A DNA stretch of 64,000 bases. Origin: Cyanidioschyzon merolae (taxonomy: Eukaryota). Below are positions 15,233-64,000 of the stretch, piece by piece (the stretch's first letter is position 1; each line of letters begins with the position of its first letter). The stretch is taken from the NCBI GenBank assembly GCA_000091205.1, contig AP006497.2; one strand, 5' to 3'. Under the pieces are notes generated by a model. It saw only the letters and a program-made list of their open reading frames with translations, did not search any database and was not told the DNA's origin. The translations under genes were made by a program, and so were the position numbers.

Positions 15233-15765
15233 AGCCTTTCGTCGATAATTACAAAGAGACAACGATCTATATTTTCAAATGAATCAATTATTTCATTTGA
15301 TATTTTCAATGAGCTTCTGGCATGGGCTTGTTAACAAGTCGTCCGGCAATGAAGTCGCATTTTTCATTGTTTATCTAAAGGCGCGAATTGCTGCGCCCAT
15401 GGACCACCATGAATCGAACGGATCGAATACTTTAAGCATGTATGATTTTAGCATGCTGCAGGTACGGAAATGAGAACAGTGGAGGATTCTACGTATGCAG
15501 TGGATAATGACACGGCTTGTTTTACGAACCGTTACTCAAGGGCGCAGCGGGTCATCTTCTACCCCGTAGCGGAACGGATTCCAGCGGCAAAAGCTCGAAA
15601 AAGCCGCTCTGAAACGACGACCACGAACTCTGATACTGTGCATGAATCCGTAATCCCCCGTCGCTGCACCTTGAATGTCTAGGATGTACATCCAAAAAAG
15701 GTCCGGAAAGAGACAGAAAGGCAGGCACGGAGCTACCAGTCCGGTATTCCATGTTAATATGACAC
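15233..15765 (-). repeat. Repeat family B, right arm of the inverted pair
   Basis: See left arm; reverse-complement identity to 14303-14835. Confidence 0.8.
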
Positions 15766-41691: not shown

Positions 41692-42395
41692 AATGGACAC
41701 GGTATAGAAAAATCAAACCGGTTTTGAAAATTGCGATCCGGTGCGCCGCTCGAATTATTCATCGACATTCGATTTTATGCTCAGTCGGAGTGCCGTTTTA
41801 CTCCTGTATTCTCTAAAACCTTGGTACGCTCGCTACGGGAAGTCTTTAATGCGTTTCTGGCGTGCAAGTCTTATTTCCTGGGGAGTAATTCCATTCCGAC
41901 ATCACTTAGACACACGCCTATTTTGCATCTTCGGATCACTCAAGACATCCACACGGGTCTCGTCCGTTCGCTACGGTGGCCTGCTCCGGTCTTCTTTTAC
42001 TGGAATAGGGCTGTTTTCCTCCATTAAAAATACTTTCCGCATGGATCCTCTGAGATATATATTCAAGGCTTTAAAACCCCACTTGGTAGTTGACAGGTTC
42101 AGTTTATGATACTCTCACTAGCGAGATTTCACACTCGGAAGCTGTTTCCTTCAAAGAGAACACTGGCTGCACCTTACGAGAGTGGGGCTTAGTCGCGCAA
42201 CAGCACTATGATTTGAAGCTCACCAACGTAGGGAAAGGCTGTAGCGCGCACTGTCAGCGCGACATAATTCCAAAACCTTACTCTTTTCGAACGCTTTGCT
42301 GGTTCCGAAAATATGAATTGCCCCATTCGAGTACGATCCCAACAACTGCTTTTGCACTTCAAAATACCTGAAGACGCAACTGCGCCGCATCCATT

Positions 42396-43663
42396 GCGAG
42401 CCTTAGCTCGACGTAGTTTCAAAGCCATAGGCGCGTCTGTCGCCTGCGGCCGAAACTTCACGGCAGCGTAGGTTAAGCTCGACATCGTATCCTTTTTTTC
42501 GCGCAATCTCAATTATATTCGGACGCGGCCCCCGCCTGCAGTCCATCGTACTGTTCATCAGACGGTGGACACCATCGAGACCCGAGAACCCATACCAGTA
42601 AAATGCGTCCTCAGTGACGGGGAAGCAGTCGCATGGTCTTAGTTGAGGGTGCGAACCAATCCAGTGTTCACTAGCAAACCGACCGAGCCCTATGCAATAT
42701 TCCGGAAGCTTTGCAGACTTGAGCTCTGTTCTCGGAATATCCGGCGCATACAGCATGGAGATATAACTACAGTTTGCCCACCACATATTCCCAGGAAAAT
42801 GAGCGTGCGGATACTCTGAGAAGCGGAGACTACAAGCGTCGCATGATTGAAGCGCCATGGCGCTCAGGCAACCCTGGGGCTTTCGCAGCACATAATGCCC
42901 AACGGCTTGTCGATACTTTTCATTTCGAATGCTCGGATGAAACGAACCCTTTGGATGGAAGTATAAAACGAAGACACTTTTGCCTTTCAGTTCCGCAACT
43001 GTGCAGAACCTGTGTAGAGCCGCAAGCGTAACTTCCTCGTTCCCGATCGGGCTCAACTGCTCGTATACGACTGGTGCACTTGTCCACTTCTCGATTCTTT
43101 CCAACCCTGACAGGTTAGTCCCGAAAGCGAACACGTGCAGAGCATCGATTTTGATTCCGCTTGATTCGAGCCAGGATAGTTGCTCTTGCGCTATACGTGG
43201 CGTCCCTGAGTTCCAGAAAACGTTATAAAAAGCGTGTAACTCTAGCCCTCTGTTCCCTCTCGAGACTAGAGTGGAATGGGAGAACTTTGACAAGCTGCGC
43301 AGGGCCACTGCAACGACAATGACTCCCAAAATAAGCGCGCTAATATATATACGAGGTTTCGATACCATCAACCTCATTAAGGCAACAGCCAGTGACAGCA
43401 CAAGACTGAAGTCGCTTGGAAAACAATGCGTGCCAAATTTGCTGGCGCCAAGTTGCGTCTTGGTTATTCTTTCAACTCTGTTCTGGGCCACTCCCATTGA
43501 GTGTAAATGCGTGGTTCTACACAGTGTATTGCAGACGACCGAACTAACTTTGCGATGTACCGTTTAGATCGTAGGCGAATTTCCTATGAATACATTCTTG
43601 ACCGCGCAGTGCAAAGAGGACTTGCATTCGTCCTTGAGGTGAGTCATACGACAGTACTCAGAT
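42396..43663 (-). repeat. Right arm of the large inverted repeat (mate of 40424-41691)
   Basis: See left arm. Confidence 0.9.
42403..43497 (-). CDS. Hypothetical type-II membrane protein, copy 2 (identical to 40590..41684)
   Basis: Identical 364-aa translation in the ORF track. Confidence 0.7.
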   Translation of the reverse strand: MGVAQNRVERITKTQLGASKFGTHCFPSDFSLVLSLAVALMRLMVSKPRIYISALILGVIVVAVALRSLSKFSHSTLVSRGNRGLELHAFYNVFWNSGTPRIAQEQLSWLESSGIKIDALHVFAFGTNLSGLERIEKWTSAPVVYEQLSPIGNEEVTLAALHRFCTVAELKGKSVFVLYFHPKGSFHPSIRNEKYRQAVGHYVLRKPQGCLSAMALQSCDACSLRFSEYPHAHFPGNMWWANCSYISMLYAPDIPRTELKSAKLPEYCIGLGRFASEHWIGSHPQLRPCDCFPVTEDAFYWYGFSGLDGVHRLMNSTMDCRRGPRPNIIEIARKKGYDVELNLRCREVSAAGDRRAYGFETTSS

Positions 43664-44953
43664 GGTTGAACAATACTGGAAGAAATAGGGATATGCGTCC
43701 AGCGCAGTAAACCGATATTCTCGAAGACTGCCCGCTGTCAATGCTAGAAAACGACCCGTTGATTACCATACGGAATGCAGAAAGCGACGATAGTAGCCGC
43801 CACGAGTATCCCTGTTTCTCAACAGCGTGTTCGTGTAGTCCTCATAACACCAGGATTCAGTCGCAAAAAAGTCCGATTTACGTCACGGCCATCTTCCACC
43901 GAAATCGCAATGACAGCGTGCACGGAACGCCGCGATCGATATGAAGCAAAGGGATGTCGGTTTGTTTCAGTCGATGAAACTTCTTTGGTACGACACCCTA
44001 GGGGCGTCTATTGGTAATATGCGGAGAGGAAGCCCGTTGTTTGTACGATCGAACTCAAAGAGAATGAAGATATCTTTTTTTCTAGCTTCAATGGATTCAT
44101 TCGGTGGCCTCGGTTTTGCTCGTGGTGATGGCTCGTACAAGAGCACAAATCAATTCGGTGAATCATTGAAGAATTTCCCCTGACGTCTGGTGACGTCCAT
44201 CTATTGAAAAATGTGACATTGCACCATTCCCCTTGGGGGCGAGCTTTTGCCGATTCTATCAGGGAAGAGCTGCTTTTCATTGCTCCGTGCTCTACGTGTT
44301 CCAAACTATTCGAAAGAGTGTTTCCTATCGTGAAACGTAATGATCGCTCCACTGGCCGAGTCGCTGAAGCGTTCAGCGCACGGTGACTCCGGGGTGCATT
44401 CGGTTATTCTTGCGCAAGTGCTTCTCCGTCAGAGAAGGCCCTAACCTAAGGGCATGAGGAAGTGCTTTCATTTTCAAAAATAAAAAATCCAAGGGAAAGT
44501 TATGGAAATGGAACTCAAGTATCCTAGAAGCCCGATGTCGCCGGCAGCGTGAAAAATCGAAAAAATTCTTTCCTCGCTGACCATCGAGCGAAGAAGAGCA
44601 AGATATGAGGAGAAAGAAGAGGGAGATATGAGAGAAAAAGTATTTTCCCGACGGGAAAATCGCTAGACTGTAGTGACACCGAGGGCAAGAGTTCGAGGAC
44701 GCCTTCCACTGGTGTGTTCAAGCAGAGGCAAGAAACGCATGGAGTTCGCGACCCGAGACTTCGACGCCGCCATCAATATTAGGAGATGTGCGGTGCTGAA
44801 GAGGAGACCTGAGGAGCTGACGCGAGCGAACTTTGTGGGGCAGCCCCTCAAGCTCGAAGTGGACACGGAGAAGCTGAAACCGATAGCGAGGGTCGGTCAA
44901 AAAATGGCTCGGAGGCGTCTGCGGATGGGTAGATATATTTATCCTCCATGGTT
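43664..44953 (+). mobile_element. Repeat/transposon family A, copy L3 (plus orientation); its 5' region continues into the right arm of the palindrome
   Basis: Module A ORF 43741..43944 (FSTACSCSPHNTRIQS...FHRNRNDSVHGTPRS). DDE-like tail 44204..44386 (ELLFIAPCSTCSKLFERVFPIVKRNDRSTGRVAEAFSAR). TnpB-like tail 44673..44957 (VCSSRGKKRMEFATRDFDAAINIRRCAVLKRRPEELTRANFVGQPLKLEV). 3' terminus ...atcctccatggtt at ~44953. Confidence 0.7.
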
Positions 44954-45892
44954 ATGAAATGCTTATTGTTTCAGTGACCGTTATGTGTACAATGCCGAGA
45001 ATATCATTGTCGGCTCTTTCTGGCAATGCGTTGCAGTTGAGTCAATCATACTGAACAACTACTACCCGTCGTAAAATAATGGAGAGAGCATATCTTTATC
45101 TTACAAGCAGAATCCAATGGATAGAACGAAAAACTCTAGAATAGGTCGAGCAATGCTGCATCTTTCGTTGCTTCCGAGTTGCTGCGAATGAGCTGTTTGT
45201 CGGCTCTTTGCATCACTGCAGATTCTCTGCAGCCGTCACGCCCGTCTGAGCCGAGTATTGACGTAGAGCAGCTATATTATCGACGAACCAGTCAAGGTTT
45301 TCGGTACTGGAAAATATCTTTTGCTACTTCGAGCGATCGGATGCACTCTGTTTGAAGAGCCTCACAGGTGGCTTTCCAGGATTTTCTTCTGAATGGCTCT
45401 CGGTTTCATTGTAGACTGACGCGTGACCGGACTCTAGCTATCCGAACCAATCGACTCTACGTGGGTATTTCAAACTTCAAATCTAAACTCGAAGAAGCTA
45501 AAAACATGCCAAAGAAAAACGTGACACTTGGTCAGGTCAGCTGAGTACCTGATCCCTTTGAGCGCACAGTTTTCTACAAGACCATCTCCAGAACCCAATT
45601 TTGTTGCTCAAAAAAACCCACTTTTTGGTTAAGAAGCTGCGAGCTTGACTGCAGACTGTATCGACGAACTGAGGAACTCTCACTTGTACAGCATGATAGC
45701 GCACAGCTTTCGATGCGCAGCGCTTTGAGCAGCCTAGAGCCGAGTGGATAGCCAGAAGCATGATGATTGCACGTTGCATCGCGCAATGATATTGGTAAAA
45801 TATTTGCTCTGTCTTTGTTCGTATAGTTTTGTTGTGGTCTAGTTTGTTTAATTCACCTGTATAAGAAAGCGTACGGATAGTTTCCGCAGTGG

Positions 45893-48148
45893 ATGGAAGC
45901 ATACCTCTCAGCACCTTCACGACCGAGTGTGACGCTTTCTGAATTCTCTGGTCGCCGGGTTTGCCAGACGAAACGGAACGATTCTCTTCTGGGCGCTCGG
46001 GGGAGGTTTGCACCGGGCACGTGGGAGCGCGTAGTGCTCGGGCGTCGCGGTGGTTCCCGTACAGTCAGTCGTTTGCCTCAAGTGCGTGCAACAGCTACTG
46101 CTGGGGTATCGCTAGTGAAGCCAAAGCAGACGGGGAACGCGTTCGCTGACCTCTGCATCAACAGCATTCGTTTCCTGGCTGTCGACGCCGTAGAGAAGGC
46201 GAACTCTGGACACCCTGGAGCGCCCATGGGTCAGGCCCCGCTCGCGTTTACTCTTTGGGACAAGTATCTGCGCTTTAACCCCAAGAATCCGAACTGGGTC
46301 AATCGCGATCGTTTTGTGCTAAGCTGTGGTCATGGGTCTATGCTTCAGTATGCTCTGCTTTACCTTTATGGATACGATCAACCAACAATGGACGATATCA
46401 AAACTTTCTGTGAATTTGGTTCTTGCGCTACGAGTCACCCCGAGAACTTTCTTCTTCCTGGCGTTGAAGTGACCACAGGGCCTCTGGGCTCTGGCGTGGC
46501 ACAGGCTGTTGGTCTCGCTATCGCCGAAGCGCACCTCGGAGCAATGTTCAACACCCCAGAGGAGAAGCTGATTGACCATTACACCTACTTCATTATGAGT
46601 GATGGATGCATGCAAGAAGGAGTAGCTGCAGAGGCCGCATCTTTGGCAGGCCATTTGGGACTGGGGAAACTAATCGGGTTTTTCGATGATAACAAGATAA
46701 CTTACGATGGACCAACAGACCTTGCGTTTAGTGAGGATGTCGTATCTAGATTCAAATCGTATAACTGGCAGGTAATTAGCATTGCAGATGGAAACACAGA
46801 CATCGACAACATCTCGAAAGCAATCGAGGAGGCGCAAAAAGATCTGACACGACCATCACTAATCATAGTTCCGACAACAATTGGTTTTGGCTCACCAAAA
46901 CACGCGAACAAAAGGACAGCACATGGAGAACCTTTCGGATCTGACGAAGTCAAGGCAACGCGGGAGAATCTTGGATGGAAATATGCTCCTTTCGAGGTCC
47001 CAGAGGAGGTGCTGAAACATTGTCGCCGCAAGATCCAAGAGGGGGCACGTCTTGAACAGGAATGGAATGAGCTCTTGCAGCGGTACAAGAGTAAGCACCC
47101 AGAACAGGCTGCACTATTCGAGCGGATGGTGATTCGCAAGGAGAAGAGCCCTGGTTGGGAAAAGGCCCTCAAGGATTGTGCGGCAAAGACAGGCTCCATG
47201 GCTACGAGGCAAGTCTCCGGCGCAATGCTCAATGCGCTCGCTGCGGTGATGCCGGAGATCATCGGGGGATCTGCAGACCTGGCCCCTTCGAACAACACGC
47301 TCCTGAAGGGCTTTGGCGATTTCTCTCGTAACAACTACAAAGCCAAGAATATGCGCTTCGGTGTCCGCGAGGCAGCGATGACTGCGATCACCGCGGGCAT
47401 CAAGCTCCACAACACTGGACTGTTTCCCTACTGCGCGACTTTTCTGATATTCACCGATTACGCCCGGGGCATGCTCCGCCTTGCTGCCCTCTCCGAGGCG
47501 GGAATCACGTTCATTACAACGCACGACTCCGTCGCCTTAGGCGAGGATGGCCCCACGCACCAGCCCATCGAGCATCTGGCTAGCCTGCGAGCTATGCCGA
47601 ATGTGTACACGTTCCGTCCGTGCGATGCGAACGAGTGCGCAGCTGGCTATGCGCTCTCGATCCGGCATGATGACAAAGTCGTTCTGTTGGCGCTCACGCG
47701 ACAGAAGACGAACAAGCTCGAGACATCCTCATACGATGGTGCCCTGCGCGGAGCGTACGTGGTTTCGGATAATAGCCCTGCGGGCAAGCACCCGGATGTG
47801 ATCCTTATCGGAACAGGCTCCGAGGTGGACGTCGTCGTGGAGGCCGCCGATCAACTACGAACTAGCGATGCTTTGAATGTGCGCGTGGTGTCGATGCCCT
47901 GCATGGAGCTCTTTGAGGACCAGGATGCAGCTTATCAAGAGTCTGTGCTTCCTGCTGCCGTGCCTCGCAGCCGGAGGGTCGTATGTGAGGCTGCCTCAAG
48001 CTTCGGCTGGTCGAAGTATGCGGATCACTTTGTGTGCATCGATCGCTTCGGAGCGTCCGGCAAAGGGCCTGACCTGATGAAGTACTTTGGGATCACGCCG
48101 TCGAACGTAGCGAAGAAGGCGCGAGAGGCTGCAGGAAAAGGCGTTTGA
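45893..48148 (+). CDS. Transketolase, copy 1 (with ~75-aa N-terminal presequence); central block diverged, including Tyr in place of the conserved His of the LLHL motif
   Basis: 751 aa with standard TK blocks ([82 protein letters not shown]). Ends are nucleotide-identical to copy 2, but 46325-46943 differs: SCGHGSMLQYALLYL, SHPE, MSDGCMQEG, YDGPT. Confidence 0.95.
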   Translation: MEAYLSAPSRPSVTLSEFSGRRVCQTKRNDSLLGARGRFAPGTWERVVLGRRGGSRTVSRLPQVRATATAGVSLVKPKQTGNAFADLCINSIRFLAVDAVEKANSGHPGAPMGQAPLAFTLWDKYLRFNPKNPNWVNRDRFVLSCGHGSMLQYALLYLYGYDQPTMDDIKTFCEFGSCATSHPENFLLPGVEVTTGPLGSGVAQAVGLAIAEAHLGAMFNTPEEKLIDHYTYFIMSDGCMQEGVAAEAASLAGHLGLGKLIGFFDDNKITYDGPTDLAFSEDVVSRFKSYNWQVISIADGNTDIDNISKAIEEAQKDLTRPSLIIVPTTIGFGSPKHANKRTAHGEPFGSDEVKATRENLGWKYAPFEVPEEVLKHCRRKIQEGARLEQEWNELLQRYKSKHPEQAALFERMVIRKEKSPGWEKALKDCAAKTGSMATRQVSGAMLNALAAVMPEIIGGSADLAPSNNTLLKGFGDFSRNNYKAKNMRFGVREAAMTAITAGIKLHNTGLFPYCATFLIFTDYARGMLRLAALSEAGITFITTHDSVALGEDGPTHQPIEHLASLRAMPNVYTFRPCDANECAAGYALSIRHDDKVVLLALTRQKTNKLETSSYDGALRGAYVVSDNSPAGKHPDVILIGTGSEVDVVVEAADQLRTSDALNVRVVSMPCMELFEDQDAAYQESVLPAAVPRSRRVVCEAASSFGWSKYADHFVCIDRFGASGKGPDLMKYFGITPSNVAKKAREAAGKGV

Positions 48149-48447
48149 GGACGCCGCGGAAGCAGCGGTTCTGTGCCGGGCAAAGATTTTCAAGCGGCGT
48201 TTGCTGCGGCAACGCTCTGCGGAATGGGAACGCTTTGGAAGAGAGTATTCTTGCAGGGTCTAAACACGGCTGTAGTATCCCGCGTGATCACGTTGGGCCT
48301 CATCGTTCTCGTTCGCAAATGCGTTCCGTAGAACGTGCTGTTCTCTAGGGTAACAACGGCTGGGTACGCGGCAGCTGCATCGCCTCTGGGCTGGAGCGGG
48401 TCCTGCGGTTTTGAACCGTTGTCCACCTCGAAGGTTTTCTCCCGCCG

Positions 48448-48963
48448 ATGGCGTCCGGGTTGGAGCACCTCCAACGGGCGCTCTGGAGACGGGGCCTTCC
48501 GTGCTTCAGCCTTGACTGGCTCACGCAAGCACACGAACGTTACCCAGACGTTGAAGAACTCGTAACGTTTGCTCTGGAAACAGTCGACTTTGAGGACCGG
48601 CGCGTCGTCGAGAGAGGCAGCCTTCCTGCGGAGGCACAGCCAGCGCTGCTCTCCAAGGAAGACGGCGTGGTCGTTCCCATACGCGGGGAGCTTCTCGTTT
48701 TTCAGGTGCTGGACGTTGCGGACGTCAGCGCCGCTGAGGAAAAAGCGGATCTTCCAAGCGGGCCCGAGCGCACTCTGAAGCTTCTGCTGACGGACGGTCG
48801 CCTCGAGTTGGCCGCTATCGAGGACGCTCCGATACCGGACCTCGGAACGAGTCTCCCTCGTTGCACGAAAGTCTGTGTGCGGAAACCTATGCTGCTGCAC
48901 GGGTTGCTGGTGCTGCGTCCCGAGAACACGTCCGTAGTGAGGCCTCGGCCGAGCTGCATATAG
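48448..48963 (+). CDS. RMI1-like OB-fold protein (RecQ-mediated genome instability protein 1 N-terminal domain-like), copy 1
   Basis: 171 aa. TLKLLLTDGRLELAAIEDAPIPDLGTSLPRCTKVCVRKPMLLHGLLVLRPENTSVV aligns with the RMI1 N-terminal OB fold (human [59 protein letters not shown]). The 400-aa Arg-rich minus ORF 48190..49392 is its antisense artefact. Confidence 0.6.
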   Translation: MASGLEHLQRALWRRGLPCFSLDWLTQAHERYPDVEELVTFALETVDFEDRRVVERGSLPAEAQPALLSKEDGVVVPIRGELLVFQVLDVADVSAAEEKADLPSGPERTLKLLLTDGRLELAAIEDAPIPDLGTSLPRCTKVCVRKPMLLHGLLVLRPENTSVVRPRPSCI

Positions 48964-49640
48964 AAGGAGTGGCTGCGGCTGCCGCTTGGGCGTATCGCAA
49001 ACGAGTTCTTGGTGATGCATCGGGCGAGCAGCTGCCGCGTCCAGCTCGAGTGTCGGACCGAATATCGCCTGTTTGATGATGTATCTGCGTGGAGCTTTCG
49101 AGATGGATACGCTTGTACGAAAAATGATCGTAGGTGTGGCATGCCTGCATGCTCGAGACACCGGCAGGATGCGTTCTACGACTGTGCCTCGGAGGCTCGT
49201 GCAGAACGCTGCCGAGACGTGCACACTGGCGCTGTGGCGCTTTCGGGCTACGGAAGTCTGGAAAGAGCGTTCTCCAAGCTTTGCACAACGCCTATGCCGG
49301 TACCTGCAAGACCACGCTGTGTCGTGAGGCACCCCTGGTTCCCATGGGTCATGCTTCAGAGCGCGAGTGAAGCGCCGCGGATGCTGCTCCATAGCAGAAT
49401 AGGTGCGGTGCTAGATCGAACTAGCGGCCTGATCTAATATGCACGCTGGTGCGTGAAAGTCTTCCATGCACATTTTGGGATATGGAATCGAGTGCGTAGC
49501 AGAAGATTGCGCAAGACTGTTTCGATGCATGCGAGTGCGCACGCTGTGACGCAGCAGGGGATTTGCGAGCCTCGGCTGGCAGGGCCCCCAGCCGGCGTCC
49601 ACGAGGGAATAGCTGAGCTGTCCCGTCTGTGTGTGGCGTT

Positions 49641-49646
49641 CGCAGT

Positions 49647-49685
<39 letters not shown>

Positions 49686-49695
49686 GCGCTCGACT
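49641..49695. repeat. Microsatellite (CAG/CAA)n; length variant of the one in duplicate copy (63941-63990)
   Basis: gcagtagcagcaacagcaacagcaacagcaacagcaacagcagcg; copy 2 has an extra gta-gca unit. It generates the poly-Leu/poly-Cys artefact ORFs on the minus strand. Confidence 0.9.
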
Positions 49696-50714
49696 CCAGA
49701 GCAAGCGCTCACTGAAGAAACGCCACCGGGTAGGGCATCTATGCAGCGAACCATAATCCTCAGAGCGAAGTCTGGAGACTGGTGTGTGGAACACGGTGGA
49801 TCTGGTGCGGAATGATATCTGCTTCCGTAAATGCCGATTGGAATCGAGACATTTAGGGATCCCCTATAAGATTCAAGGATCCTGCGCTACTGAAGAACAA
49901 CTTGCGGGGACTCACCGAGGATCCATCGTCGTGTCCGAACGATCGCGGCGAAGGATGCAAACGCATGATCTCCCCAGTCACGCATAATGCCACGGACGGA
50001 AGGTGCATAAGATATTTCGATTCCAGTTCTATTCGTGCACGCATGAGCTCCCTAGTCACGCATAATGCCACGGAGTAAAAGTACACAACGTATCTAGATT
50101 CCGGTTTACTTCTTGCGCTTCTTGTTCATACTGTTGCAAGGCGAAATCGTCGGTGTTCGCAGTTATTCACGGGTATAACGCCGAAATTTGCGATACCCTG
50201 ACGCTTACCGGTGGGCGGGAGCCCTCCTGTGGACACACTCGGCGATACTCGGTGCATGGGCTGTAGATCACAGGCGGACGATCGTTAAAGGTCGCTGTGA
50301 TTTTAGTGTTGCCCATACCTCTACGCGTGGAAGTCATCCCCAGAGGGCGGCTCTCGAGCGCGCTGCCCTCGGTGACTCGGAGCGGCGCATGGTCTCCGCA
50401 CTGGTAGCGATGATGCAGGAGCATCACTCGAGCGCAACCTGTGTACGCCCCTCTCGGGCACCAGTCTGCGTAAATCTACCAGAAAAATATTCGATCGTCT
50501 CTGCCGTAGGTGTCTTGCTCGACAGTGCGGTCAGCGCGGTGCATTGGATGCGCGGAGCTGCCCCTGGGATGGTCCGCTTGGTTTCGGGTTGTGCGCGGGT
50601 CTTCCAGTGACCCCTCGCGTCCACAGAAGCATCAGGCCGGTGTCACGTAGAGCGCTCCAGTTGCTGCGAGCCTGTGGATCCTGCACTAGCCGAGCACCGA
50701 CTGGGCGCTCAAGG

Positions 50715-53036
50715 TTACAGCGGGGATCGTCCAGTGTCTGTATCACGGTGGTAGTCGAAGGGCTCATTGAAAACGCATCCAACTTGACCCCGTAGATATC
50801 TCTCCATGAGATCCCTGGTTGAAGCGTTGAACTCTTCCGAAATGGGGCGGCCGAAGTAGCGGCTTTCGTTCAGCTGCTTTCGGACACGCTTTGCGAGCAC
50901 CTTTCCGAGTTCGACGCCCCACTGGTCGAATGAATTGATGTCCCAGATGAAACCCTGGACTGCCGTGCGATGCTCATAGAGCGCGAGCAACTGGCCAGTG
51001 GCGTACGGATCCAGCCTCTGCAGCAGCAGCGTCAGACTCGGCCTGTTGCCAGTCGTCACGAGATGCGGAATCAGCCATTCGGGGCGGCCCTCTGCACGAC
51101 ACTCCGCCGCTGTTTTGCCGTACGCCAGAGCATCTGGCTGGGCGAAAAAGTTCGCCATGAGCTCGTCTGCATTGCTGACCGGCTCACCCTCGATGCACAG
51201 CGGGTACTGGGACTCGATGAAGCCAATAAAATCGCAGGGTACCGTCTGCCCCATATGCAGCAGCTGGAAAAACGAGTGCTGGCCGTTGGTGCCGGGCTCT
51301 CCAAAGTCGATCTCACCGACCGCGTAGTCGACGTCGTCGCCGCGCAGCGTCACGTGCTTACCGTTGCTCTCCATGTCAACCTGCTGGATATGAGCGGGGA
51401 ACTTGAGAAGCGCCTCTGCGTAAGGATGCAGCGCCCGGCTCTTGTAGCCGAGAAAAGACAGGTTCCAGACGCCGAGAAGCCCCATGATCACCGGCAAGTT
51501 CCCCGCCAGCGGACTAGCAACGTCGTAAAAGTTCGCATCAACAGAGCGCGCGCCCTCTAGAAATCGCAGGAACGTGGGGAAGCCGTACTGAATCGAGAGC
51601 GGCAGCGCTCCGACCGCAGAGCACACGGAATACCTACCCCCGACCCAGTCCCAAAACTCAAAAGTGTTCCGCGGGTCGATCCCGAACTTCTCCACCATCG
51701 GCACGTTGCTGCTGCAGGCAACCATGTGGAGCCGCACGACCTCATCCGAGCGCCCCATTTCGGACCAGAGCCATTCGCGCATCGCCCGTGCATTCAGAAG
51801 CGTCTCCGCGGTTGTGAACGACTTGCTCACGATCACTATCAGCGTCTCCTCCGCCGACAGATCCTGCGTGCAGCGCTTGATATCCACAGGATCCACGTTG
51901 CTGAGAAAATGAAGGTGCCGCCCCCGCGCCGCCTCAAACGCCTCCGGATCCGTCCGAAACGCCTCGTGCACAAAGTCTGGCCCCAGATACGAGCCGCCAA
52001 TCCCCACAGCGATGACGCTGCGAAGCGGCTTCCCCGTGGCGCCGCGATGCTCCCCGCTGCGCACCCGCTCGCTGAACTCACGCACGTGATCGAGCACCCG
52101 CCACACGTCACGAACAACGTCCGTACCGTCGACAACAAGGCTTGCGTTCCGCTCCGCGCGAAGCGCCGTATGCAGCACGGCGCGCCGCTCGGTCACGTTT
52201 ATGTGCGCGCCGGACTGCATCGCGCGGATCTTATCCACCAAACGCGCACGACGCGCTAGCGCGAAAAGTAGCTCAATCGTATCCTTCGTCACCCGCTGCC
52301 GCGAGTAGTCGAGGTAGATCCCGTCATACTCAGCGCGCAGAGAACGCACGCGATCGACGTCCTGCATCAGCTCCCGCAGGTGCAAACGATCGATCTCAGA
52401 TGCATGCTCCACCAGCCGTCTCCACTCGGCAGTCTCCGAGATGAGGACGTAGTCGGTCGGCACCGGCAGTGGTGGCGGCGTTTCCGAAGGAAGCCGCCTC
52501 CCAACGGTGTAGCTCCCGCGAACGTCCCCCGCTGTGCAACGCGGAAACGCACGTCTCCGCAAAAGCCCAGCAGACCCGTGGTGCGGGTACAGCGCCCTGG
52601 ATCGGCGCGATCCAGCTACCCCACCCCGAAGCGGCCACCCAGGCACGACAAAGGCGCTCATCAGGCGAACACTCTCCCAGCAAGCAAAGACCAGGTGCAC
52701 ACTATTGCGCACTGCACCGCGCAGCGAGCTTTCAACTGGCGTCCGCTTCTTGGGCGATTCGCCTCCGGCACGCGCGGCAGGCGGGTGCAGCTGCGAGGGC
52801 GCGGCCAACGGATCAGCGACTCGTTGATAGACTTTCACCTGAATTGCGTTCCATACGCAGGTGCGTGCCATCAACTGCTCTTTCGCCGCTGATGAGAGAC
52901 GCGTTCCGCGTGCGTGCCTTAGCAGAAATAAAAAATCTAGGGGAAGGTATGGGCATGGAAGTCGGAGATCAAAGGCGGTCGCCATGGCCGGCTTCTTGAG
53001 GGAAAGGACGAAAGAAATCCTGGTCTCGCCGACCAT
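50715..53036 (-). CDS. PGI: Glucose-6-phosphate isomerase (PGI); ORF has a ~190-aa N-terminal extension, and the real start is probably an internal Met (<=52870) because the extreme 5' end overlaps TE copy L4
   Basis: Mature part has canonical PGI blocks: [55 protein letters not shown], and the isomerase signature ...[10 protein letters not shown]. Confidence 0.9.
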
Positions 53037-53408
53037 GGAGCGAAGAAGCGCAAGTGACGAAGAAGAAGAGAGGCACAGGGGCGGCAGGCGAGAAGAGGGG
53101 TTCGCCCGATGAGACTGCGACGAGACTGTACTGGGAGAGGGGGCACGAGATCGAGGAACTCTCGCAATATCGAGTTCATGCAGAGGAAATATAGAGATGG
53201 AGTTCGTGACCTGGGACCTCTATGCCGCCATCAATATCAGGGAATGTGCGGTTCTGGAGACGAGGCCCGCAGAGCCGACGCGATCCAGCATTGTGGGGCA
53301 GCCCCTGAGGCTTGAAGTGCACAAGGCGAAGCTGCAGCCGATGGCAGGGGCTGGTCAGGAACTGCTGGGAGGCGTCTGGGACTGGATATATATTTACCTA
53401 CCATGGTT
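52880..53408 (+). mobile_element. Repeat/transposon family A, copy L4 (5'-truncated; retains the A-rich internal segment and the TnpB-like tail)
   Basis: agcagaaataaaaaatctaggggaaggtatgggcatggaag...ccatggagcgaagaagcgcaag aligns with L3 ttttcaaaaataaaaaatccaagggaaagttatggaaatggaac...ccatcgagcgaagaagagcaag. TnpB-like tail [41 protein letters not shown]. 3' end ...tacctaccatggttg at ~53408. Confidence 0.65.
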
Positions 53409-56893: not shown

Positions 56894-57787
56894 ATGGTCC
56901 GAGGCGAAGCCAGCTCCAGCAGCATGCCACGCGCTTTGAGCATCGCAGGCTCGGACTCGGGAGGCGGTGCCGGCATCCAAGCCGATCTGAAGACTTTTGA
57001 AGCCCTCGGCGTGTACGGCATGACCGTTATCACAGCGATCACGGCCCAGAATACGGTTGGAGTGCAGGCCGTGGAGGGTGTGTCTCCCGCTTTGGTTCGC
57101 GCCCAGTTACAGAGCGTTCTGAGCGACATCGGCGTTGACGCCATAAAGACTGGTATGCTTTTGGACTGCGGCACCATCAACGTGGTGGCAGATACCATAG
57201 AGAGCAGCGAACCAGCTGCCATGGCGCCTCTGGTCGTCGACCCAGTCATGGTGGCAAAGAGCGGCGACCGCTTGCTTGCCGCCGATGCAGTAGCGGCCTT
57301 GAAGACTCGTCTTGCACCGCTGGCAACGGTTCTAACGCCAAACATCCCCGAGGCCGAACAGCTGCTAGGTAGGCGCCTCACAATCGATAGCATGGATTCA
57401 ATGCGACGTGCACTTGTCGAGCTCATGGAGGAGTTGCCTGAAACGCGCGCAGTTCTTCTCAAGGGCGGCCACCTAGACTCCACTGGCAACGTCTGTGTTG
57501 ACCTGTTTAGCGATCGCGTACACGGCGGTCTAACTGAGCTTACACTTTCAAGACTTAGCTCGAGGAACAGTCACGGAACGGGCTGCACCACTGCATCGGC
57601 GATAGCTGCTGGCCTCGCTAAGGGCTACCCCTTGCTTAAAGCAGTTTACCTGAGCAAGCGATATGTGCACGGGTGCATTGAGCATGCCTTGCCGTTGGGC
57701 GCTGGGTGTGGTCCGCTCTTCCACGCACACCTTCAGGCAGCAGATGGTGCTCTCGATGCTAAGCTGAAGGAGCTTATCGGAGACTGA
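56894..57787 (+). CDS. Hydroxymethylpyrimidine/phosphomethylpyrimidine kinase (ThiD-type, thiamine biosynthesis)
   Basis: 297 aa. ALSIAGSDSGGGAGIQADLKTFEALGVYGMTVITAITAQNTVGV is the ThiD N-terminal signature. A ribokinase-family fold (GG motif, DPVMVAKSGD) continues throughout. Confidence 0.9.
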   Translation: MVRGEASSSSMPRALSIAGSDSGGGAGIQADLKTFEALGVYGMTVITAITAQNTVGVQAVEGVSPALVRAQLQSVLSDIGVDAIKTGMLLDCGTINVVADTIESSEPAAMAPLVVDPVMVAKSGDRLLAADAVAALKTRLAPLATVLTPNIPEAEQLLGRRLTIDSMDSMRRALVELMEELPETRAVLLKGGHLDSTGNVCVDLFSDRVHGGLTELTLSRLSSRNSHGTGCTTASAIAAGLAKGYPLLKAVYLSKRYVHGCIEHALPLGAGCGPLFHAHLQAADGALDAKLKELIGD

Positions 57788-58293: not shown

Positions 58294-58761
58294 CTACCGG
58301 CCGGTGCTCCCGAAACCCTTGCAGCCGCGTTGCGTTTCCTCCAGCTCGGCCACCTCCACAACTGGTGGTGTCTCGATCCGTTCCAGAATAAGCTGAGCAA
58401 TCCGCATCCCAACTTCGACCTGGAAGCATTCCTCGCCCAGGTTGAAAATCACAACACCGAGGTTCCCGCGGTAGTCCTGATCCACTACTCCAGCGCCGAG
58501 ATCGATACCGTGCTTCAGAGCCAGCCCGCTACGAGGTGCAACACGGCCATACGTGCCGACAGGTACGGCAACTGCTAGGTCAGTGCGGACGAGCGCGCGG
58601 CCTCCTGGTGGAATCTCGACGCTCTCAGCGGCAAAGAGGTCGTAGCCCGCCGCGTGCTCTGAAGACCGGAGAGGCAACGTAGCGCACTCACTCAATCGTT
58701 TCACACGTAATGCACCAGACTCTTGATTGCTTTCCGTTTGGCACATGGTGAACCTCTTCAC
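58294..58761 (-). CDS. DUT: dUTP pyrophosphatase (dUTPase)
   Basis: 155 aa with all five dUTPase motifs: AAGYDLFA, GRVAPRSGLALKHGIDLGAGVVDQDYRGNLGVVIFN, RIAQLILERI, RGCKGFGSTG. Confidence 0.9.
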   Translation of the reverse strand: MKRFTMCQTESNQESGALRVKRLSECATLPLRSSEHAAGYDLFAAESVEIPPGGRALVRTDLAVAVPVGTYGRVAPRSGLALKHGIDLGAGVVDQDYRGNLGVVIFNLGEECFQVEVGMRIAQLILERIETPPVVEVAELEETQRGCKGFGSTGR

Positions 58762-60192: not shown

Positions 60193-62448
60193 ATGCTCGC
60201 ATACCTCTCAGCACCTTCACGACCGAGTGTGACGCTTTCTGAATTCTCTGGTCGCCGGGTTTGCCAGACGAAACGGAACGATTCTCTTCTGGGCGCTCGG
60301 GGGAGGTTTGCACCGGGCACGTGGGAGCGCGTAGTGCTCGGGCGTCGCGGTGGTTCCCGTACAGTCAGTCGTTTGCCTCAAGTGCGTGCAACAGCTACTG
60401 CTGGGGTATCGCTAGTGAAGCCAAAGCAGACGGGGAACGCGTTCGCTGACCTCTGCATCAACAGCATTCGTTTCCTGGCTGTCGACGCCGTAGAGAAGGC
60501 GAACTCTGGACACCCTGGAGCGCCCATGGGTCAGGCCCCGCTCGCGTTTACTCTTTGGGACAAGTATCTGCGCTTTAACCCCAAGAATCCGAACTGGGTC
60601 AATCGCGATCGTTTTGTGCTAAGCAGCGGCCACGGGTCAATGCTATTATATGCTTTGCTTCACCTCTATGGGTATGATCGTCCAACAATAGAAGATATCA
60701 AACAGTTTCGGCAGCTTGGTGCGGTAACCGCGGGTCACCCCGAGAACTTTCTTCTTCCTGGCGTTGAAGTGACCACAGGGCCTCTGGGCTCTGGTGTGGC
60801 ACAGGCTGTTGGTCTCGCTATCGCCGAAGCGCACCTCGGAGCAATGTTCAACACCCCACAGGAGAAGCTGATTGACCATTACACTTACTTTATCATGGGT
60901 GACGGATGTGCGCAGGAAGGTGTTGCCTCCGAGGCATCGTCTCTTGCAGGGCATTTACGACTGGGGAAGCTGATCGGTTTCTATGATGATAACAAAATAA
61001 CGATTGACGGGCACACTGATCTTTCATTCAGCGAGGATGTGGGTGCACGCTATGAGGCGTACGGTTGGCAGGTCCTGAGGGTTCCCAACGGTAATGAGGA
61101 TCTCGGAGCAATTGAGCAGGCCATCCTCACAGCAAAAAGCGATACAACGCGTCCATCACTGATAATTGTCTCGACTATTATTGGCTTTGGATCCCCTCAC
61201 AAAGCAGACACGCATGATGTTCACGGAGCTGCCCTCGGTGCCGACGAAGTCAAGGCAACGCGGGAGAATCTTGGATGGAAATATGCTCCTTTCGAGGTCC
61301 CAGAGGAGGTGCTGAAACATTGTCGCCGCAAGATCCAAGAGGGGGCACGTCTTGAACAGGAATGGAATGAGCTCTTGCAGCGGTACAAGAGTAAGCACCC
61401 AGAACAGGCTGCACTATTCGAGCGGATGGTGATTCGCAAGGAGAAGAGCCCTGGTTGGGAAAAGGCCCTCAAGGATTGTGCGGCAAAGACAGGCTCCATG
61501 GCTACGAGGCAAGTCTCCGGCGCAATGCTCAATGCGCTCGCTGCGGTGATGCCGGAGATCATCGGGGGATCTGCAGACCTGGCCCCTTCGAACAACACGC
61601 TCCTGAAGGGCTTTGGCGATTTCTCTCGTAACAACTACAAAGCCAAGAATATGCGCTTCGGTGTCCGCGAGGCAGCGATGACTGCGATCACCGCGGGCAT
61701 CAAGCTCCACAACACTGGACTGTTTCCCTACTGCGCGACTTTTCTGATATTCACCGATTACGCCCGGGGCATGCTCCGCCTTGCTGCCCTCTCCGAGGCG
61801 GGAATCACGTTCATTACAACGCACGACTCCGTCGCCTTAGGCGAGGATGGCCCCACGCACCAGCCCATCGAGCATCTGGCTAGCCTGCGAGCTATGCCGA
61901 ATGTGTACACGTTCCGTCCGTGCGATGCGAACGAGTGCGCAGCTGGCTATGCGCTCTCGATCCGGCATGATGACAAAGTCGTTCTGTTGGCGCTCACGCG
62001 ACAGAAGACGAACAAGCTCGAGACATCCTCATACGATGGTGCCCTGCGCGGAGCGTACGTGGTTTCGGATAATAGCCCTGCGGGCAAGCACCCGGATGTG
62101 ATCCTTATCGGAACAGGCTCCGAGGTGGACGTCGTCGTGGAGGCCGCCGATCAACTACGAACTAGCGATGCTTTGAATGTGCGCGTGGTGTCGATGCCCT
62201 GCATGGAGCTCTTTGAGGACCAGGATGCAGCTTATCAAGAGTCTGTGCTTCCTGCTGCCGTGCCTCGCAGCCGGAGGGTCGTATGTGAGGCTGCCTCAAG
62301 CTTCGGCTGGTCGAAGTATGCGGATCACTTTGTGTGCATCGATCGCTTCGGAGCGTCCGGCAAAGGGCCTGACCTGATGAAGTACTTTGGGATCACGCCG
62401 TCGAACGTAGCGAAGAAGGCGCGAGAGGCTGCAGGAAAAGGCGTTTGA
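60193..62448 (+). CDS. Transketolase, copy 2 (canonical active-site residues; same N-terminal presequence as copy 1)
   Basis: 751 aa. The central block matches canonical TK (yeast TKL1-like): [111 protein letters not shown]. Confidence 0.95.
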
Positions 62449-63952: not shown

Positions 63953-63985
<33 letters not shown>

Positions 63986-64000
63986 GCGCTCGACTCCAGA
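60199..64000 (+). repeat. Segmental duplication unit 2 (mate of 45899-49700); truncated by the window end
   Basis: See unit 1. Confidence 0.9.
62748..63263 (+). CDS. RMI1-like OB-fold protein, copy 2 (identical to 48448..48963)
   Basis: Identical 171-aa translation at +14300 offset. Confidence 0.6.
   Translation: MASGLEHLQRALWRRGLPCFSLDWLTQAHERYPDVEELVTFALETVDFEDRRVVERGSLPAEAQPALLSKEDGVVVPIRGELLVFQVLDVADVSAAEEKADLPSGPERTLKLLLTDGRLELAAIEDAPIPDLGTSLPRCTKVCVRKPMLLHGLLVLRPENTSVVRPRPSCI

What the first reader, a model, noticed from the sequence alone, without database searches (positions are those of the whole stretch)
46325..46943. Transketolase copy 1 has substitutions at conserved cofactor/active-site motifs (LLHL->LLYL, GHPE->SHPE, IDGHT->YDGPT), copy 2 is canonical
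In the diverged block, copy 2 reads [19 protein letters not shown]...AGHPE...MGDGCAQEG...IDGHT...HGAALGAD, essentially as yeast TKL1 or E. coli TktA. Copy 1 reads SCGHGSMLQYALLYLYGYD...TSHPE...MSDGCMQEG...YDGPT...HGEPFGSD. The His of the LLHL motif is, from my recollection of TK structures, the TPP-site His69 of yeast TKL1 / His66 of E. coli TktA. Replacing it with Tyr suggests altered catalysis (neofunctionalised or regulatory paralogue). The rest of the protein and the presequence are kept identical to the functional copy. Both copies share an identical ~75-aa Ser/Arg/Thr-rich presequence, consistent with organelle (plastid) targeting.
Basis: partly seen in the sequence, partly recalled or inferred. 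Interest (0 to 1): 0.6.

Follow-up and report, generated by a model that had tools for sequence, protein, structure and literature searches.

The report
Variant transketolase cassette spared by gene conversion
Two tandem plastid transketolase genes of the red alga Cyanidioschyzon merolae are kept identical by gene conversion except for a 0.6-kb cassette near the cofactor site; the same two cassette versions occur in a sister genus, so the odd copy is probably a working, selected enzyme variant rather than a broken gene.

Summary
The window is C. merolae 10D. TK copy 1 (45893-48148) and copy 2 (60193-62448) lie exactly 14,300 nt apart. They are 100% identical from codon 3 to nt 46324 and from 46943 to the window end, and only 71.6% identical in 46325-46942.

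The LLHL histidine is yeast His79, not His69, and Tyr there is the majority state in relatives. All catalytic and cofactor-ligand residues are intact in copy 1.

Copy 1 does replace residues invariant in 236 other TKs. These are R94C (the salt-bridge partner of Asp477), G102S (next to His103) and I191Y (a thiazolium contact), plus Q95E, P101T and near-invariant Y184F. It also carries H→P at the site of the E. coli stabilising mutation H192P.

Cyanidiococcus has the same tandem layout and the same two cassette types. Cassettes group by type (bootstrap 100/96%) and flanks by species (100/100%). Synonymous sites in the cassette are saturated, and type 1 has pN/pS of about 0.18.

Best reading: an old duplication homogenised by gene conversion, with selection preserving a divergent cassette that encodes a TK isozyme with a remodelled cofactor loop and acceptor pocket. 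This is a new variant of a known kind, of moderate interest.

The parts
45893..48148 (+). Transketolase copy 1 (type-1 cassette), 751 aa; BAM81493 / XP_005537529
   Evidence: ORF. Pfam Transketolase_N, Transket_pyr and Transketolase_C. 100% match to the C. merolae 10D protein. AF2 model versus maize TK 1ITZ: target-normalised TM 0.97, rmsd 1.4 A.
60193..62448 (+). Transketolase copy 2 (type-2, canonical cassette), 751 aa; BAM81498 / XP_005537534
   Evidence: An independent metagenome contig, L001, reproduces it with its own upstream at 99.7% identity.
45893..46129 (+). Presequence (codons 1-79), putative plastid transit peptide; identical in both copies except codon 2
   Evidence: Solved TKs align only from residue 80-89. 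Residues 1-73 have pLDDT below 50. Composition read from the sequence: 12 Arg, 15 Ser+Thr, 4 acidic.
45899..46324 (+). 5' homogenised tract (426 nt), 100% identical to 60199-60624; the repeat starts at codon 3
46325..46433 (+). Diverged sub-block A (codons 145-181). Contains Y157 (the LLYL Tyr), C173 (yeast R94C) at 46409-46411 and S181 (G102S) at 46433-46435.
46434..46584 (+). Homogenised middle stretch; only 2 differences (46495, 46559)
46585..46942 (+). Diverged sub-block B (codons 231-350). Contains S236 (G156S) at 46598-46600, F264 (Y184F) at 46682-46684, Y271 (I191Y) at 46703-46705, P274 (the E. coli H192 position) at 46712-46714, and the HGEPFG motif.
60625..61242 (+). Counterpart cassette in copy 2 (canonical FRQLG..GHPE, GDG, IDGHT, HGAALG)
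46943..49700 (+). 3' homogenised tract, identical to 61243-64000 (runs to the window end). Covers the rest of TK (Pyr and C-terminal domains) and the RMI1_N gene.
   Evidence: The only irregularity is the (CAGCAA)n microsatellite at 49649-49683.
48448..48963 (+). RMI1_N-like gene inside the repeat unit
   Evidence: Pfam PF08585. Same position in Cyanidiococcus.
50715..53036 (-). Glucose-6-phosphate isomerase gene inside repeat unit 1
   Evidence: Pfam PGI, E = 3e-183. Duplicated together with TK in Cyanidiococcus.
56894..57787 (+). ThiD-like phosphomethylpyrimidine kinase gene between the TK copies
   Evidence: Pfam Phos_pyr_kin, E = 1e-88. Same position in Cyanidiococcus.
58294..58761 (-). 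dUTPase-like gene upstream of copy 2
   Evidence: ORF. A dUTPase lies at the same place in L002 and L005.

Best explanation
An ancestral tandem segmental duplication (TK, RMI1_N, PGI, ThiD-like kinase) arose before Cyanidioschyzon and Cyanidiococcus split. In each species it is still being homogenised by interlocus gene conversion or unequal recombination, so the two units are essentially identical.

The one exception is a roughly 0.6-kb cassette in the ThDP-diphosphate (PP) domain of TK. Two ancient versions persist there because selection removes conversion events that erase either one. Type 2 is a canonical plastid TK. Type 1 keeps every catalytic and cofactor-ligand residue but has a rebuilt PP-domain half of the active site:
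- Cys replaces the universal Arg94 that salt-bridges Asp477 of the partner subunit.
- Ser replaces Gly102, next to His103.
- Tyr (C. merolae) or Phe (Cyanidiococcus) replaces Ile191 on the thiazolium ring.
- Pro occupies the position of the E. coli stabilising mutation H192P.
- SDG replaces GDG.

Inferred steps, not shown: type 1 is a catalytically competent isozyme. Its cofactor-binding loop is more rigid and holds ThDP more tightly, giving better stability in a thermo-acidophile, probably at some cost in turnover. Its acceptor pocket is altered. Because the Pyr and C-terminal domains are identical, the two subunits can probably form homo- and heterodimers, and each active site takes the character of the subunit that contributes its PP domain.
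For: Layout and identity:
- Exact 14,300-nt repeat with 100% identical flanks and a 71.6%-identical cassette.
- Cyanidiococcus (two independent assemblies) has the same gene order, DUF8361 / TK type 1 / RMI1_N / PGI / ThiD / dUTPase / TK type 2, a 9.4-kb unit about 100% identical within species, and the same 5' repeat boundary at the TK start codon.

Age and phylogeny:
- The cassette groups by type (NJ bootstrap 100/96%) and the flanks by species (100/100%).
- Cassette synonymous sites are saturated between the copies (pS 0.87), so the divergence is old.

Constraint:
- Type 1 has dN 0.165 and pN/pS 0.18 between genera, against dN 0.063 for type 2 and 0.23-0.28 across types.
- Type 1 evolves faster by the relative-rate test (33 versus 12 unique changes, p = 0.002).
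- At population level, an environmental type-1 copy differs from 10D by synonymous changes only.

Signs of ongoing homogenisation:
- CDS nt 1914 is T in both 10D copies and G in environmental type-1 and type-2 copies.
- GC3 is 0.39-0.48 in the cassette and 0.67 in the converted flanks (Fisher p = 1e-9 and 2e-5). The same holds in Cyanidiococcus, while a single-copy relative is flat.

Function:
- All catalytic residues are kept, and the AF2 model superposes on maize TK at TM 0.97.
- R94, G102 and an aliphatic residue at 191 are invariant in 236 other TKs. Only 2 intact prokaryotic TKs among the genomes of 185,579 species matched a Cys-at-94 pattern.
- E. coli R91 salt-bridges D469 of the other monomer (PMC5073344, PMC3657141).
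- Ile191/I189 contacts the thiazolium ring. I189H rigidifies the cofactor loop (8-fold higher kinetic stability, 40-fold lower kcat). H192P raises Tm by about 4 C (PMC4601599, PMC5286519).
- The natural SDG Ser of M. tuberculosis TK hydrogen-bonds the diphosphate without loss of activity, and human Gln189 hinders ThDP dissociation (PMC3352088).
Against: - No expression, localisation or activity data for either copy were found.
- The direction of the functional change rests on analogy with E. coli, human and mycobacterial enzymes, not on this protein.
- Loss of the universal Arg94-Asp477 salt bridge and a bulky aromatic on the thiazolium could severely reduce activity; I189H cost 95% of specific activity in E. 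coli.
- dS is saturated, so a true dN/dS cannot be estimated, and only two genera carry type 1.
- Two metagenome contigs (L005, L006) pair each cassette with the other copy's upstream region. If these are real rather than assembly cross-overs, the cassette-promoter link is not fixed.
- The 3' end of the C. merolae repeat lies beyond the window.
Confidence: 0.65

Rival explanations
1. Redox-switched isozyme. The new active-site Cys173 (yeast position 94), alone or together with Cys178 (position 99, in FCEFGSC), makes type 1 a thiol- or disulfide-regulated Calvin-cycle TK that is switched by thioredoxin, glutathionylation or oxidative stress. This is compatible with the evolutionary part of the best explanation and differs only in what the cassette is for.
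For: R94C is fixed in both genera at a position that is Arg in 236/236 other TKs. The residue sits in the active site next to Asp477 and His30. Type 1 has a C-x4-C spacing, and the enzyme is plastid-targeted.
Against: Cys178 is also present in Cyanidiococcus type 2 and in a few other TKs. No structural or biochemical evidence shows that the two thiols can bond. Most other type-specific changes (I191Y/F, H194P, G156S, Y184F) point to the cofactor loop rather than to redox chemistry.
Confidence: 0.15
2. Catalytically crippled, regulatory subunit (pseudoenzyme-like). Type 1 has little activity of its own and acts by forming heterodimers with type 2 or by binding ThDP or substrates.
For: It lacks the universal Arg94-Asp477 salt bridge and has an aromatic residue on the thiazolium. 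E. coli I189H lost 95% of specific activity. Identical Pyr and C-terminal domains would allow heterodimers. Type 1 evolves 2.5-5 times faster.
Against: Every catalytic, metal and cofactor ligand is retained. Purifying selection acts on the cassette in two genera. In a dimer each active site is built independently, so a dead PP domain would only halve activity.
Confidence: 0.1
3. Relaxed constraint. Copy 1 is a redundant duplicate drifting toward a pseudogene, and the cassette is simply the part that gene conversion has not yet repaired.
For: Copy 1 has the most deviations at conserved columns of any TK compared (22 of 110), a faster rate and the lowest GC3.
Against: The ORF is intact in C. merolae, in an environmental strain and in two Cyanidiococcus strains. 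The same derived residues (C94, E95, A100, T101, S102, S156, F184, P194, E265, P266) are shared across genera whose synonymous sites are saturated. pN/pS is 0.18. Conversion has swept everything around and even between the two sub-blocks yet spared them in both lineages.
Confidence: 0.05
4. Foreign or artefactual origin. Either the cassette was imported by horizontal transfer or introgression into a recent duplicate, or it is an assembly artefact.
For: The flanks are perfectly identical while the cassette is sharply bounded. Metagenome contigs show mixed contexts.
Against: The nearest relative of the C. merolae type-1 cassette is the Cyanidiococcus type-1 cassette (76.5-81% aa), followed by the local type 2. 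Outside these algae the best match is 64% or less. The layout is reproduced in the finished 10D genome, in two independent Cyanidiococcus assemblies and in metagenome contigs. The 5' boundary and gene order are shared between genera.
Confidence: 0.03

Closest known systems
Canonical plastid/cyanobacterial-type transketolase (maize 1ITZ, Chlamydomonas 5ND5)
   Same: Three-domain TK fold (target-normalised TM 0.97, rmsd 1.4-1.5 A, 52-53% identity). All catalytic and cofactor residues are present. There is an N-terminal targeting extension.
   Different: Copy 1 replaces R94, Q95, P101, G102 and I191, which are invariant in 236 relatives, and near-invariant T100 (one Ala) and Y184 (one Phe). Copy 2 does not.
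Mycobacterium tuberculosis transketolase (natural SDG motif) and human TKT (Gln189)
   Same: SDG in place of GDG, with the Ser hydroxyl able to hydrogen-bond the diphosphate. A non-aliphatic residue at the Ile191 position, which in human TKT hinders ThDP dissociation (PMC3352088).
   Different: Those enzymes keep the Arg94 equivalent. They are single, diverged orthologues, not a cassette variant beside a canonical twin.
Engineered E. coli TK cofactor-loop variants H192P and I189H
   Same: Type 1 has Pro at the H192 position and a bulky ring at I189. In E. coli these changes rigidify cofactor loop 185-192 and raise thermal stability (PMC5286519).
   Different: The algal changes are natural and fixed for a long time, use Tyr or Phe rather than His, and are combined with R94C and G102S. 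Their effect has not been measured here.
Partial concerted evolution of tandem paralogues (interlocus gene conversion with a selected divergent island)
   Same: Paralogues are identical within species, orthologues are diverged, and gene segments give discordant trees. This is a known phenomenon. Relevant abstracts seen in searches are PMC4132178, PMC1855330 and PMC6053082.
   Different: Here the homogenised unit is at least 9-14 kb including intergenic DNA. The island is only about 0.6 kb, split into two sub-blocks, and is retained in two genera. It maps onto one half of an enzyme active site. No description of this case was found in the literature.

Membership tests
Transketolase (EC 2.2.1.1; Pfam PF00456 + PF02779 + PF02780/PF22613) | Three-domain PP / Pyr / C-terminal architecture and fold | tested here: met
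   Pfam E = 5e-135, 4e-45 and 5e-36. AF2 model pTM 0.85. Foldseek versus 1ITZ: TM 0.97.
Transketolase (EC 2.2.1.1; Pfam PF00456 + PF02779 + PF02780/PF22613) | ThDP-binding motif GDG...N with metal ligands Asp157, Asn187 and the Ile189 carbonyl | tested here: met
   Copy 1 has SDG...DDNKI. Asp, Asn and Ile are kept. SDG is a natural, active variant: 49/120 relatives and M. tuberculosis TK.
Transketolase (EC 2.2.1.1; Pfam PF00456 + PF02779 + PF02780/PF22613) | Catalytic and substrate residues His30, His69, His103, His263, His469, His481, Glu418, Asp382, Asp477, Arg359, Ser386, Arg528 | tested here: met
   All are present in both copies and in both Cyanidiococcus copies. Numbering was checked against 1GPU.
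Transketolase (EC 2.2.1.1; Pfam PF00456 + PF02779 + PF02780/PF22613) | Invariant active-site Arg94 (E. coli R91), which salt-bridges Asp477 of the partner subunit | tested here: not met
   Copy 1 and Cyanidiococcus type 1 have Cys. Arg occurs in 236/236 other TKs and in copy 2. The role of the residue is taken from PMC5073344 and PMC3657141.
Transketolase (EC 2.2.1.1; Pfam PF00456 + PF02779 + PF02780/PF22613) | Aliphatic residue (Ile or Leu) at position 191 packing on the thiazolium ring | tested here: not met
   Tyr in C. merolae type 1 and Phe in Cyanidiococcus type 1. Only Ile or Leu occur in 236 others.
Transketolase (EC 2.2.1.1; Pfam PF00456 + PF02779 + PF02780/PF22613) | Ketol-transfer activity; dimer with two shared active sites | not testable with these tools
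   Requires recombinant protein assays and a structure.
Concerted evolution by interlocus gene conversion | Paralogues more alike within a species than orthologues between species | tested here: met
   Flanks are 100% and 99.8% identical within species and 89% between species. Flank bootstrap by species is 100/100%.
Concerted evolution by interlocus gene conversion | Segment-wise phylogenetic discordance (an unconverted island that predates speciation) | tested here: met
   The cassette groups by type, 100/96%. Cassette pS between the copies is 0.87.
Concerted evolution by interlocus gene conversion | Flank polymorphisms shared by both paralogues within strains; GC-biased signature in converted tracts | tested here: met
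   CDS nt 1914 is T/T in 10D and G in environmental type-1 and type-2 copies; this is a single site. GC3 is 0.67 in flanks and 0.39-0.48 in the cassette. Suggestive, not proof.
Processed or decaying pseudogene | Stop codons, frameshifts, or dN/dS near 1 | tested here: not met
   Intact 751-codon ORFs in four genomes or strains. pN/pS is 0.18 for type 1.
Plastid transit peptide (rhodophyte type) | N-terminal extension absent from mature TKs, hydroxylated and basic, poor in acidic residues, with an aromatic residue near the N-terminus | tested here: met
   Alignments to solved TKs start at residue 80-89. Residues 1-73 have pLDDT below 50. The extension has 12 Arg, 15 Ser+Thr and 4 Asp+Glu in 79 aa. 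The N-terminus reads MLAY/MEAY, against MLAF in relatives. Import itself was not tested. The N-terminal aromatic rule is from my own knowledge.

The most novel reading that the evidence does not exclude
The type-1 cassette turns a Calvin-cycle/pentose-phosphate transketolase into a conditionally active isozyme, switched by temperature or redox state. A thiol replaces the universal active-site Arg94, and a rigidified cofactor loop holds ThDP tightly. Selection has shielded this 0.6-kb cassette from otherwise complete gene conversion since before the Cyanidioschyzon/Cyanidiococcus split. In effect it would be a genomic version of mutually exclusive exons, giving two active-site chemistries on one shared protein scaffold, including hybrid heterodimers.
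Probability: 0.15. Interest if true: 0.7.

Novelty: new variant of a known kind. Interest (0 to 1): 0.5.

Why it matters
Transketolase is one of the most conserved enzymes of central carbon metabolism and a major target of biocatalyst engineering. A natural, long-maintained variant that replaces three positions invariant in 236 relatives (Arg94, Gly102, Ile191) while keeping all catalytic residues is a ready-made experiment. It shows what these residues are for, and it overlaps with laboratory mutations that stabilise the cofactor loop.

For evolutionary genetics it is a clean, quantifiable case of selection holding a tiny island against gene conversion inside a tandem repeat of at least 9-14 kb that is otherwise perfectly homogenised. 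It occurs in two genera of a genetically tractable alga where cassette swaps by homologous recombination are feasible.

For annotation, the two genes are currently both labelled simply 'transketolase'. Short-read expression studies will confuse them unless reads are mapped to the 619-nt cassette.

Tried and rejected
- Exact-sequence lookup of copy 1 in the assembly index: not on record. Only copy 2 was found, in a JGI contig.
- Homologue search with the type-1 cassette alone: it returned only short TK fragments at 64% identity or less. No further type-1 members and no foreign donor were found.
- Metagenome-wide scan for the FCEFG..C..SHPE coding motif: one hit, a chance match in a bacterial contig with no TK. 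That collection evidently lacks the samples that hold L005.
- Prokaryote-genome scan for Cys at position 94 in TK context: 8 hits, of which only 2 are intact TKs and 1 is a degraded TK. This gives no informative subfamily.
- Upstream-region conservation between species, to test the orthology of the two promoters: no alignment scored above shuffled controls. Orthology was instead supported by gene order.
- Literature searches by organism plus enzyme, by accession numbers and by locus-tag prefix: no paper discusses the two copies.
- Idea that ORF remnants 44673-44954 and 53197-53724 are TnpB/Fanzor-like: no Pfam hit and no similarity to the TnpB-like fragment in L004. They match only each other.
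- A true dN/dS for the cassette: not obtainable because pS is 0.7-0.87 (saturated). pN/pS and dN comparisons were used instead.
- Whether the duplication predates the lineage of P0004, a single-copy, mosaic TK: unresolved, with bootstrap 32-34%.
Full report
**Identity of the locus.** The window is nuclear DNA of the red alga Cyanidioschyzon merolae 10D. The ORF at 45893-48148 is 100% identical to BAM81493/XP_005537529 and the ORF at 60193-62448 to BAM81498/XP_005537534. Both are annotated 'transketolase' on a 902,900-bp chromosome. Both have the full Transketolase_N / Transket_pyr / Transketolase_C architecture. No other TK-like sequence is present in the window.

**Checking the observation.** The two genes are exactly 14,300 nt apart. 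At that offset the sequences behave as follows:
- They are unrelated upstream of the ATG.
- They differ at all three bases of codon 2.
- They are 100% identical over 45899-46324.
- They are 71.6% identical in nt (71.0% in aa) over 46325-46943, with the last mismatch at 46942.
- They are 100% identical from 46943 to the end of the window, 2,757 nt that include the next gene.

The diverged region is really two sub-blocks, codons 145-181 and 231-350, separated by a homogenised stretch with 2 differences.

**Mapping the substitutions.**

*Numbering and background.* I verified yeast TKL1 numbering against PDB 1GPU. I then aligned yeast, the four cyanidialean sequences and 116 further TKs, and checked a second, more diverse set of 120 TK fragments.

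His69 lies in SNGH, which is SCGH in copy 1 and is retained. Tyr at position 79 is the majority state (83/116 and 55/120). It also occurs in Cyanidiococcus copy 2, in Galdieria and in cyanobacteria.

*Ordinary variants.* SDG for GDG is common (49/120). It is the natural state of the active M. tuberculosis enzyme, where the Ser hydroxyl hydrogen-bonds the diphosphate (PMC3352088). HGEP is also common (Glu 39/120, Pro 74/120).

*Catalytic residues.* Every catalytic, metal-binding, cofactor-binding and phosphate-binding residue listed for yeast and L. salivarius TK (PMC4601599) is intact in both copies.

- R94C: Arg in 236/236 others.
- Q95E: never Glu in 236.
- T100A: one other case.
- P101T: Thr absent in 236.
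- G102S: Gly in 236/236; the residue next to His103.
- Y184F: one other case.
- I191Y: only Ile or Leu in 236/236.

*What these residues do.* E. coli R91, which equals yeast R94, salt-bridges Asp469 (yeast Asp477) of the other monomer inside the active site (PMC5073344, PMC3657141). Ile191/I189 packs on the thiazolium ring and forms part of the hydrophobic substrate pocket. The His-to-Pro change in IDGHT to YDGPT is the same as E. coli H192P, which raises Tm by about 4 C. I189H in the same loop gives 8-fold higher kinetic stability but 40-fold lower kcat (PMC5286519). Human TKT has Gln at this position, which is thought to hinder ThDP dissociation.

*Rarity of Cys at position 94.* A pattern scan of one genome from each of 185,579 prokaryotic species found only two intact TKs with Cys at position 94 in this sequence context.

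*Structure prediction.* An AlphaFold2 model of copy 1 is confident over the mature enzyme. pLDDT dips at the cofactor loop 271-280, as expected for an apo TK. The model superposes on maize TK with TM 0.97 and rmsd 1.4 A.

**Evolutionary context, the main new finding.**

*Same layout in the sister genus.* Cyanidiococcus yangmingshanensis carries both cassette types. P0002 is type 1 (FCEFGSCATSHPE, SDGCMQEG, FDGPT, HGEPLG) and P0003 is type 2. The two proteins are identical to each other outside the cassette. In two independent assemblies they lie in tandem in the same gene order as in C. merolae: DUF8361-like, TK type 1, RMI1_N, PGI, ThiD-like kinase, dUTPase, TK type 2, RMI1_N, PGI, ThiD-like. 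The repeated unit of 9,411 nt is about 100% identical within the species except for the TK cassette, and the repeat starts at the TK start codon as in C. merolae.

*Discordant trees.* Neighbour-joining bootstraps group the cassette by type (100% and 96%) and the flanks by species (100% and 100%).

*Substitution rates.*
- Within the cassette, synonymous sites between the two C. merolae copies are saturated (pS 0.87, pN 0.23).
- Between genera, dN is 0.165 for type 1, 0.063 for type 2 and 0.23-0.28 across types.
- The flanks have zero differences within C. merolae and dN 0.065 between genera.
- Type 1 therefore evolves faster, which the relative-rate test confirms (33 versus 12 unique changes with the single-copy relative as outgroup, p = 0.002). 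It is still constrained (pN/pS 0.18).

*Population data.* An environmental type-1 copy differs from 10D only at synonymous sites.

*Signs of ongoing homogenisation.* CDS position 1914 is T in both 10D copies but G in environmental type-1 and type-2 copies. GC3 is 0.67 in the homogenised TK flanks and 0.39/0.48 in the cassette (Fisher p = 1e-9 and 2e-5). The same contrast appears in Cyanidiococcus, and the profile is flat in a single-copy relative. Other genes in the repeat also have higher GC3 (0.62-0.72) than genes outside it (0.53-0.60). This is what GC-biased gene conversion would produce.

*Timing and mechanism.* A recent paper dates the split of Cyanidium from the Cyanidiococcus+Cyanidioschyzon ancestor at about 0.3 Gyr and documents a sexual cycle in the class (PMC13353863). 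That gives a plausible setting for recombination. The split between the two genera is younger than 0.3 Gyr, but it is old enough for synonymous sites to be saturated.

*Single-copy relative.* A more distant relative known only from an ENA metagenome (P0004, 71% identity) has a single TK next to PGI with a mosaic cassette: SCGH, MLQ, MDDIK and SDG, but a canonical FRQLG..GHPE, IDGD and HGAALG. Whether the duplication predates that lineage is unresolved.

**Interpretation.** The data fit an old tandem duplication that is continuously homogenised, with selection preserving two versions of one cassette in the PP domain. TK active sites are formed by the PP domain of one subunit and the Pyr domain of the other. 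The Pyr and C-terminal domains of the two paralogues are identical. The cassette alone therefore decides the character of each active site, and heterodimers with one site of each kind are plausible (inference).

Three type-1 changes have experimentally characterised analogues, all affecting cofactor binding or loop rigidity. These are Ser in SDG, the bulky residue at 191, and Pro at the H192 position. Two others, R94C and G102S, lie at the donor/acceptor pocket.

My best mechanistic guess is a competent isozyme with tighter, more heat-stable ThDP binding and an altered acceptor pocket. This would be useful in organisms living at 42-50 C and low pH. The guess is inference by analogy; no activity or expression data exist.

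**Alternatives considered.**
- A thiol/redox switch created by Cys173, with Cys178 five residues later.
- A weakly active regulatory subunit.
- Simple decay of a redundant copy. This is contradicted by cross-genus conservation and intact ORFs.
- Foreign or artefactual origin. This is contradicted by phylogeny, by matches of 64% or less outside these algae, and by independent assemblies.

**Comparison with what is known.** Both genes are members of the transketolase family by architecture, fold, ThDP motif and catalytic residues. Copy 1 fails two family-wide invariants, Arg94 and the aliphatic residue at 191, so it is best called a variant TK rather than a typical one. Partial concerted evolution with a selected island is a known phenomenon. 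I found no description of this particular case or of a natural R94C/G102S/I191Y transketolase. I rate it a new variant of a known kind with moderate interest (0.5).

**Caveats.**
- The 3' end of the C. merolae repeat lies outside the window.
- dS saturation prevents a formal dN/dS estimate.
- Only two genera carry type 1.
- Two metagenome contigs pair each cassette with the other copy's upstream region (L005, L006). The most likely cause is assembler cross-over within the 426-nt identical 5' tract, because the type order is conserved in three finished or independent assemblies. A real recombinant arrangement cannot be excluded.

Noticed in passing
window 56894-57787 (+); L002 17087-17998: A ThiD-like phosphomethylpyrimidine kinase, a thiamine-biosynthesis enzyme (Pfam Phos_pyr_kin, E = 1e-88), lies between the two ThDP-dependent transketolase genes. 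In Cyanidiococcus it sits inside the duplicated unit together with TK and PGI. This may be coincidental linkage of a cofactor-synthesis gene with a cofactor user.
   Followed up: partly
window 40305-41702 and 42385-43782: A 1,398-nt inverted repeat (97% complementary, 682 nt apart) just upstream of TK copy 1. It carries two identical 364-aa ORFs that are 69% identical to the DUF8361 gene in the same position in Cyanidiococcus. This is a second local duplication, here in inverted orientation.
   Followed up: partly
L005 (JGI 3300054705) 7860-10115; L006 (JGI 3300050389) 194-2449: Two metagenome contigs combine copy 2's upstream region and Leu codon 2 with the type-1 cassette (L005), and copy 1's upstream region and Glu codon 2 with the type-2 cassette (L006). 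This is probably assembler cross-over in the 426-nt identical tract. If real, cassettes and promoters recombine in nature.
   Followed up: partly
window 47806 and 62106 (CDS nt 1914); L001, L005, L006: A synonymous flank site is T in both 10D copies and G in all three environmental copies, whichever cassette type they carry. This is a polymorphism shared by the paralogues, as expected under ongoing homogenisation.
   Followed up: yes
window 46325-46942 versus the rest of the TK CDS; also RMI1_N 48448-48963 and PGI 50715-53036: GC3 drops to 0.39 (copy 1) and 0.48 (copy 2) in the unconverted cassette, against 0.67 in the converted flanks. Genes inside the repeat have GC3 of 0.62-0.72 and genes outside it 0.53-0.60. 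This is compatible with GC-biased gene conversion.
   Followed up: yes
window 44673-44954 (+) and 53197-53724 (+); inverted repeat arms 39164-39449 / 44636-44921: Short ORF remnants of a dispersed repeat (53% aa identity to each other, shared motif D..AAINIR.CAVL) lie about 0.9 kb upstream of TK copy 1 and between PGI and ThiD. They have no Pfam hit and no similarity to the TnpB-like fragment near the TK of the single-copy relative (L004). Their nature is unknown, possibly a mobile-element relic.
   Followed up: partly
window codon 494 of both TK copies (47372-47374 and 61672-61674): Both cassette types, Cyanidiococcus and the single-copy relative read REAAM where 114/116 TKs read REH(A/G)M, that is Ala after the catalytic Glu418. 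E. coli has Phe there. About ten other clade-specific changes occur at otherwise conserved flank positions, so the whole clade's TK is unusually diverged.
   Followed up: partly
window 48190-49392 (-) and 62490-63692 (-): A 400-aa ORF antisense to the RMI1_N gene has no Pfam hit and is duplicated with the repeat. It is probably a spurious ORF. JGI calls a 236-aa product on this strand.
   Followed up: no
window 49649-49683 and 63955-63983: A (CAGCAA)n microsatellite in the repeat unit is reported with 5.8 copies in one unit and 4.8 in the other. It is the only irregularity seen in the otherwise identical 3' tract; the second array lies near the window end.
   Followed up: no
window 14302-14834 and 15234-15766: A further 533-nt inverted repeat, 99% complementary with arms 399 nt apart, unrelated to the TK locus.
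   Followed up: no
L011 3946-4019 (Microbulbifer variabilis); L014 5675-5748 (Niveibacterium MAG): These are the only intact prokaryotic TKs found with Cys at the Arg94 position (FCQLHSKTPGHPE). The Microbulbifer gene also reads ISDDG where other TKs read ISIDG. They could be sequencing errors or rare natural variants.
   Followed up: no
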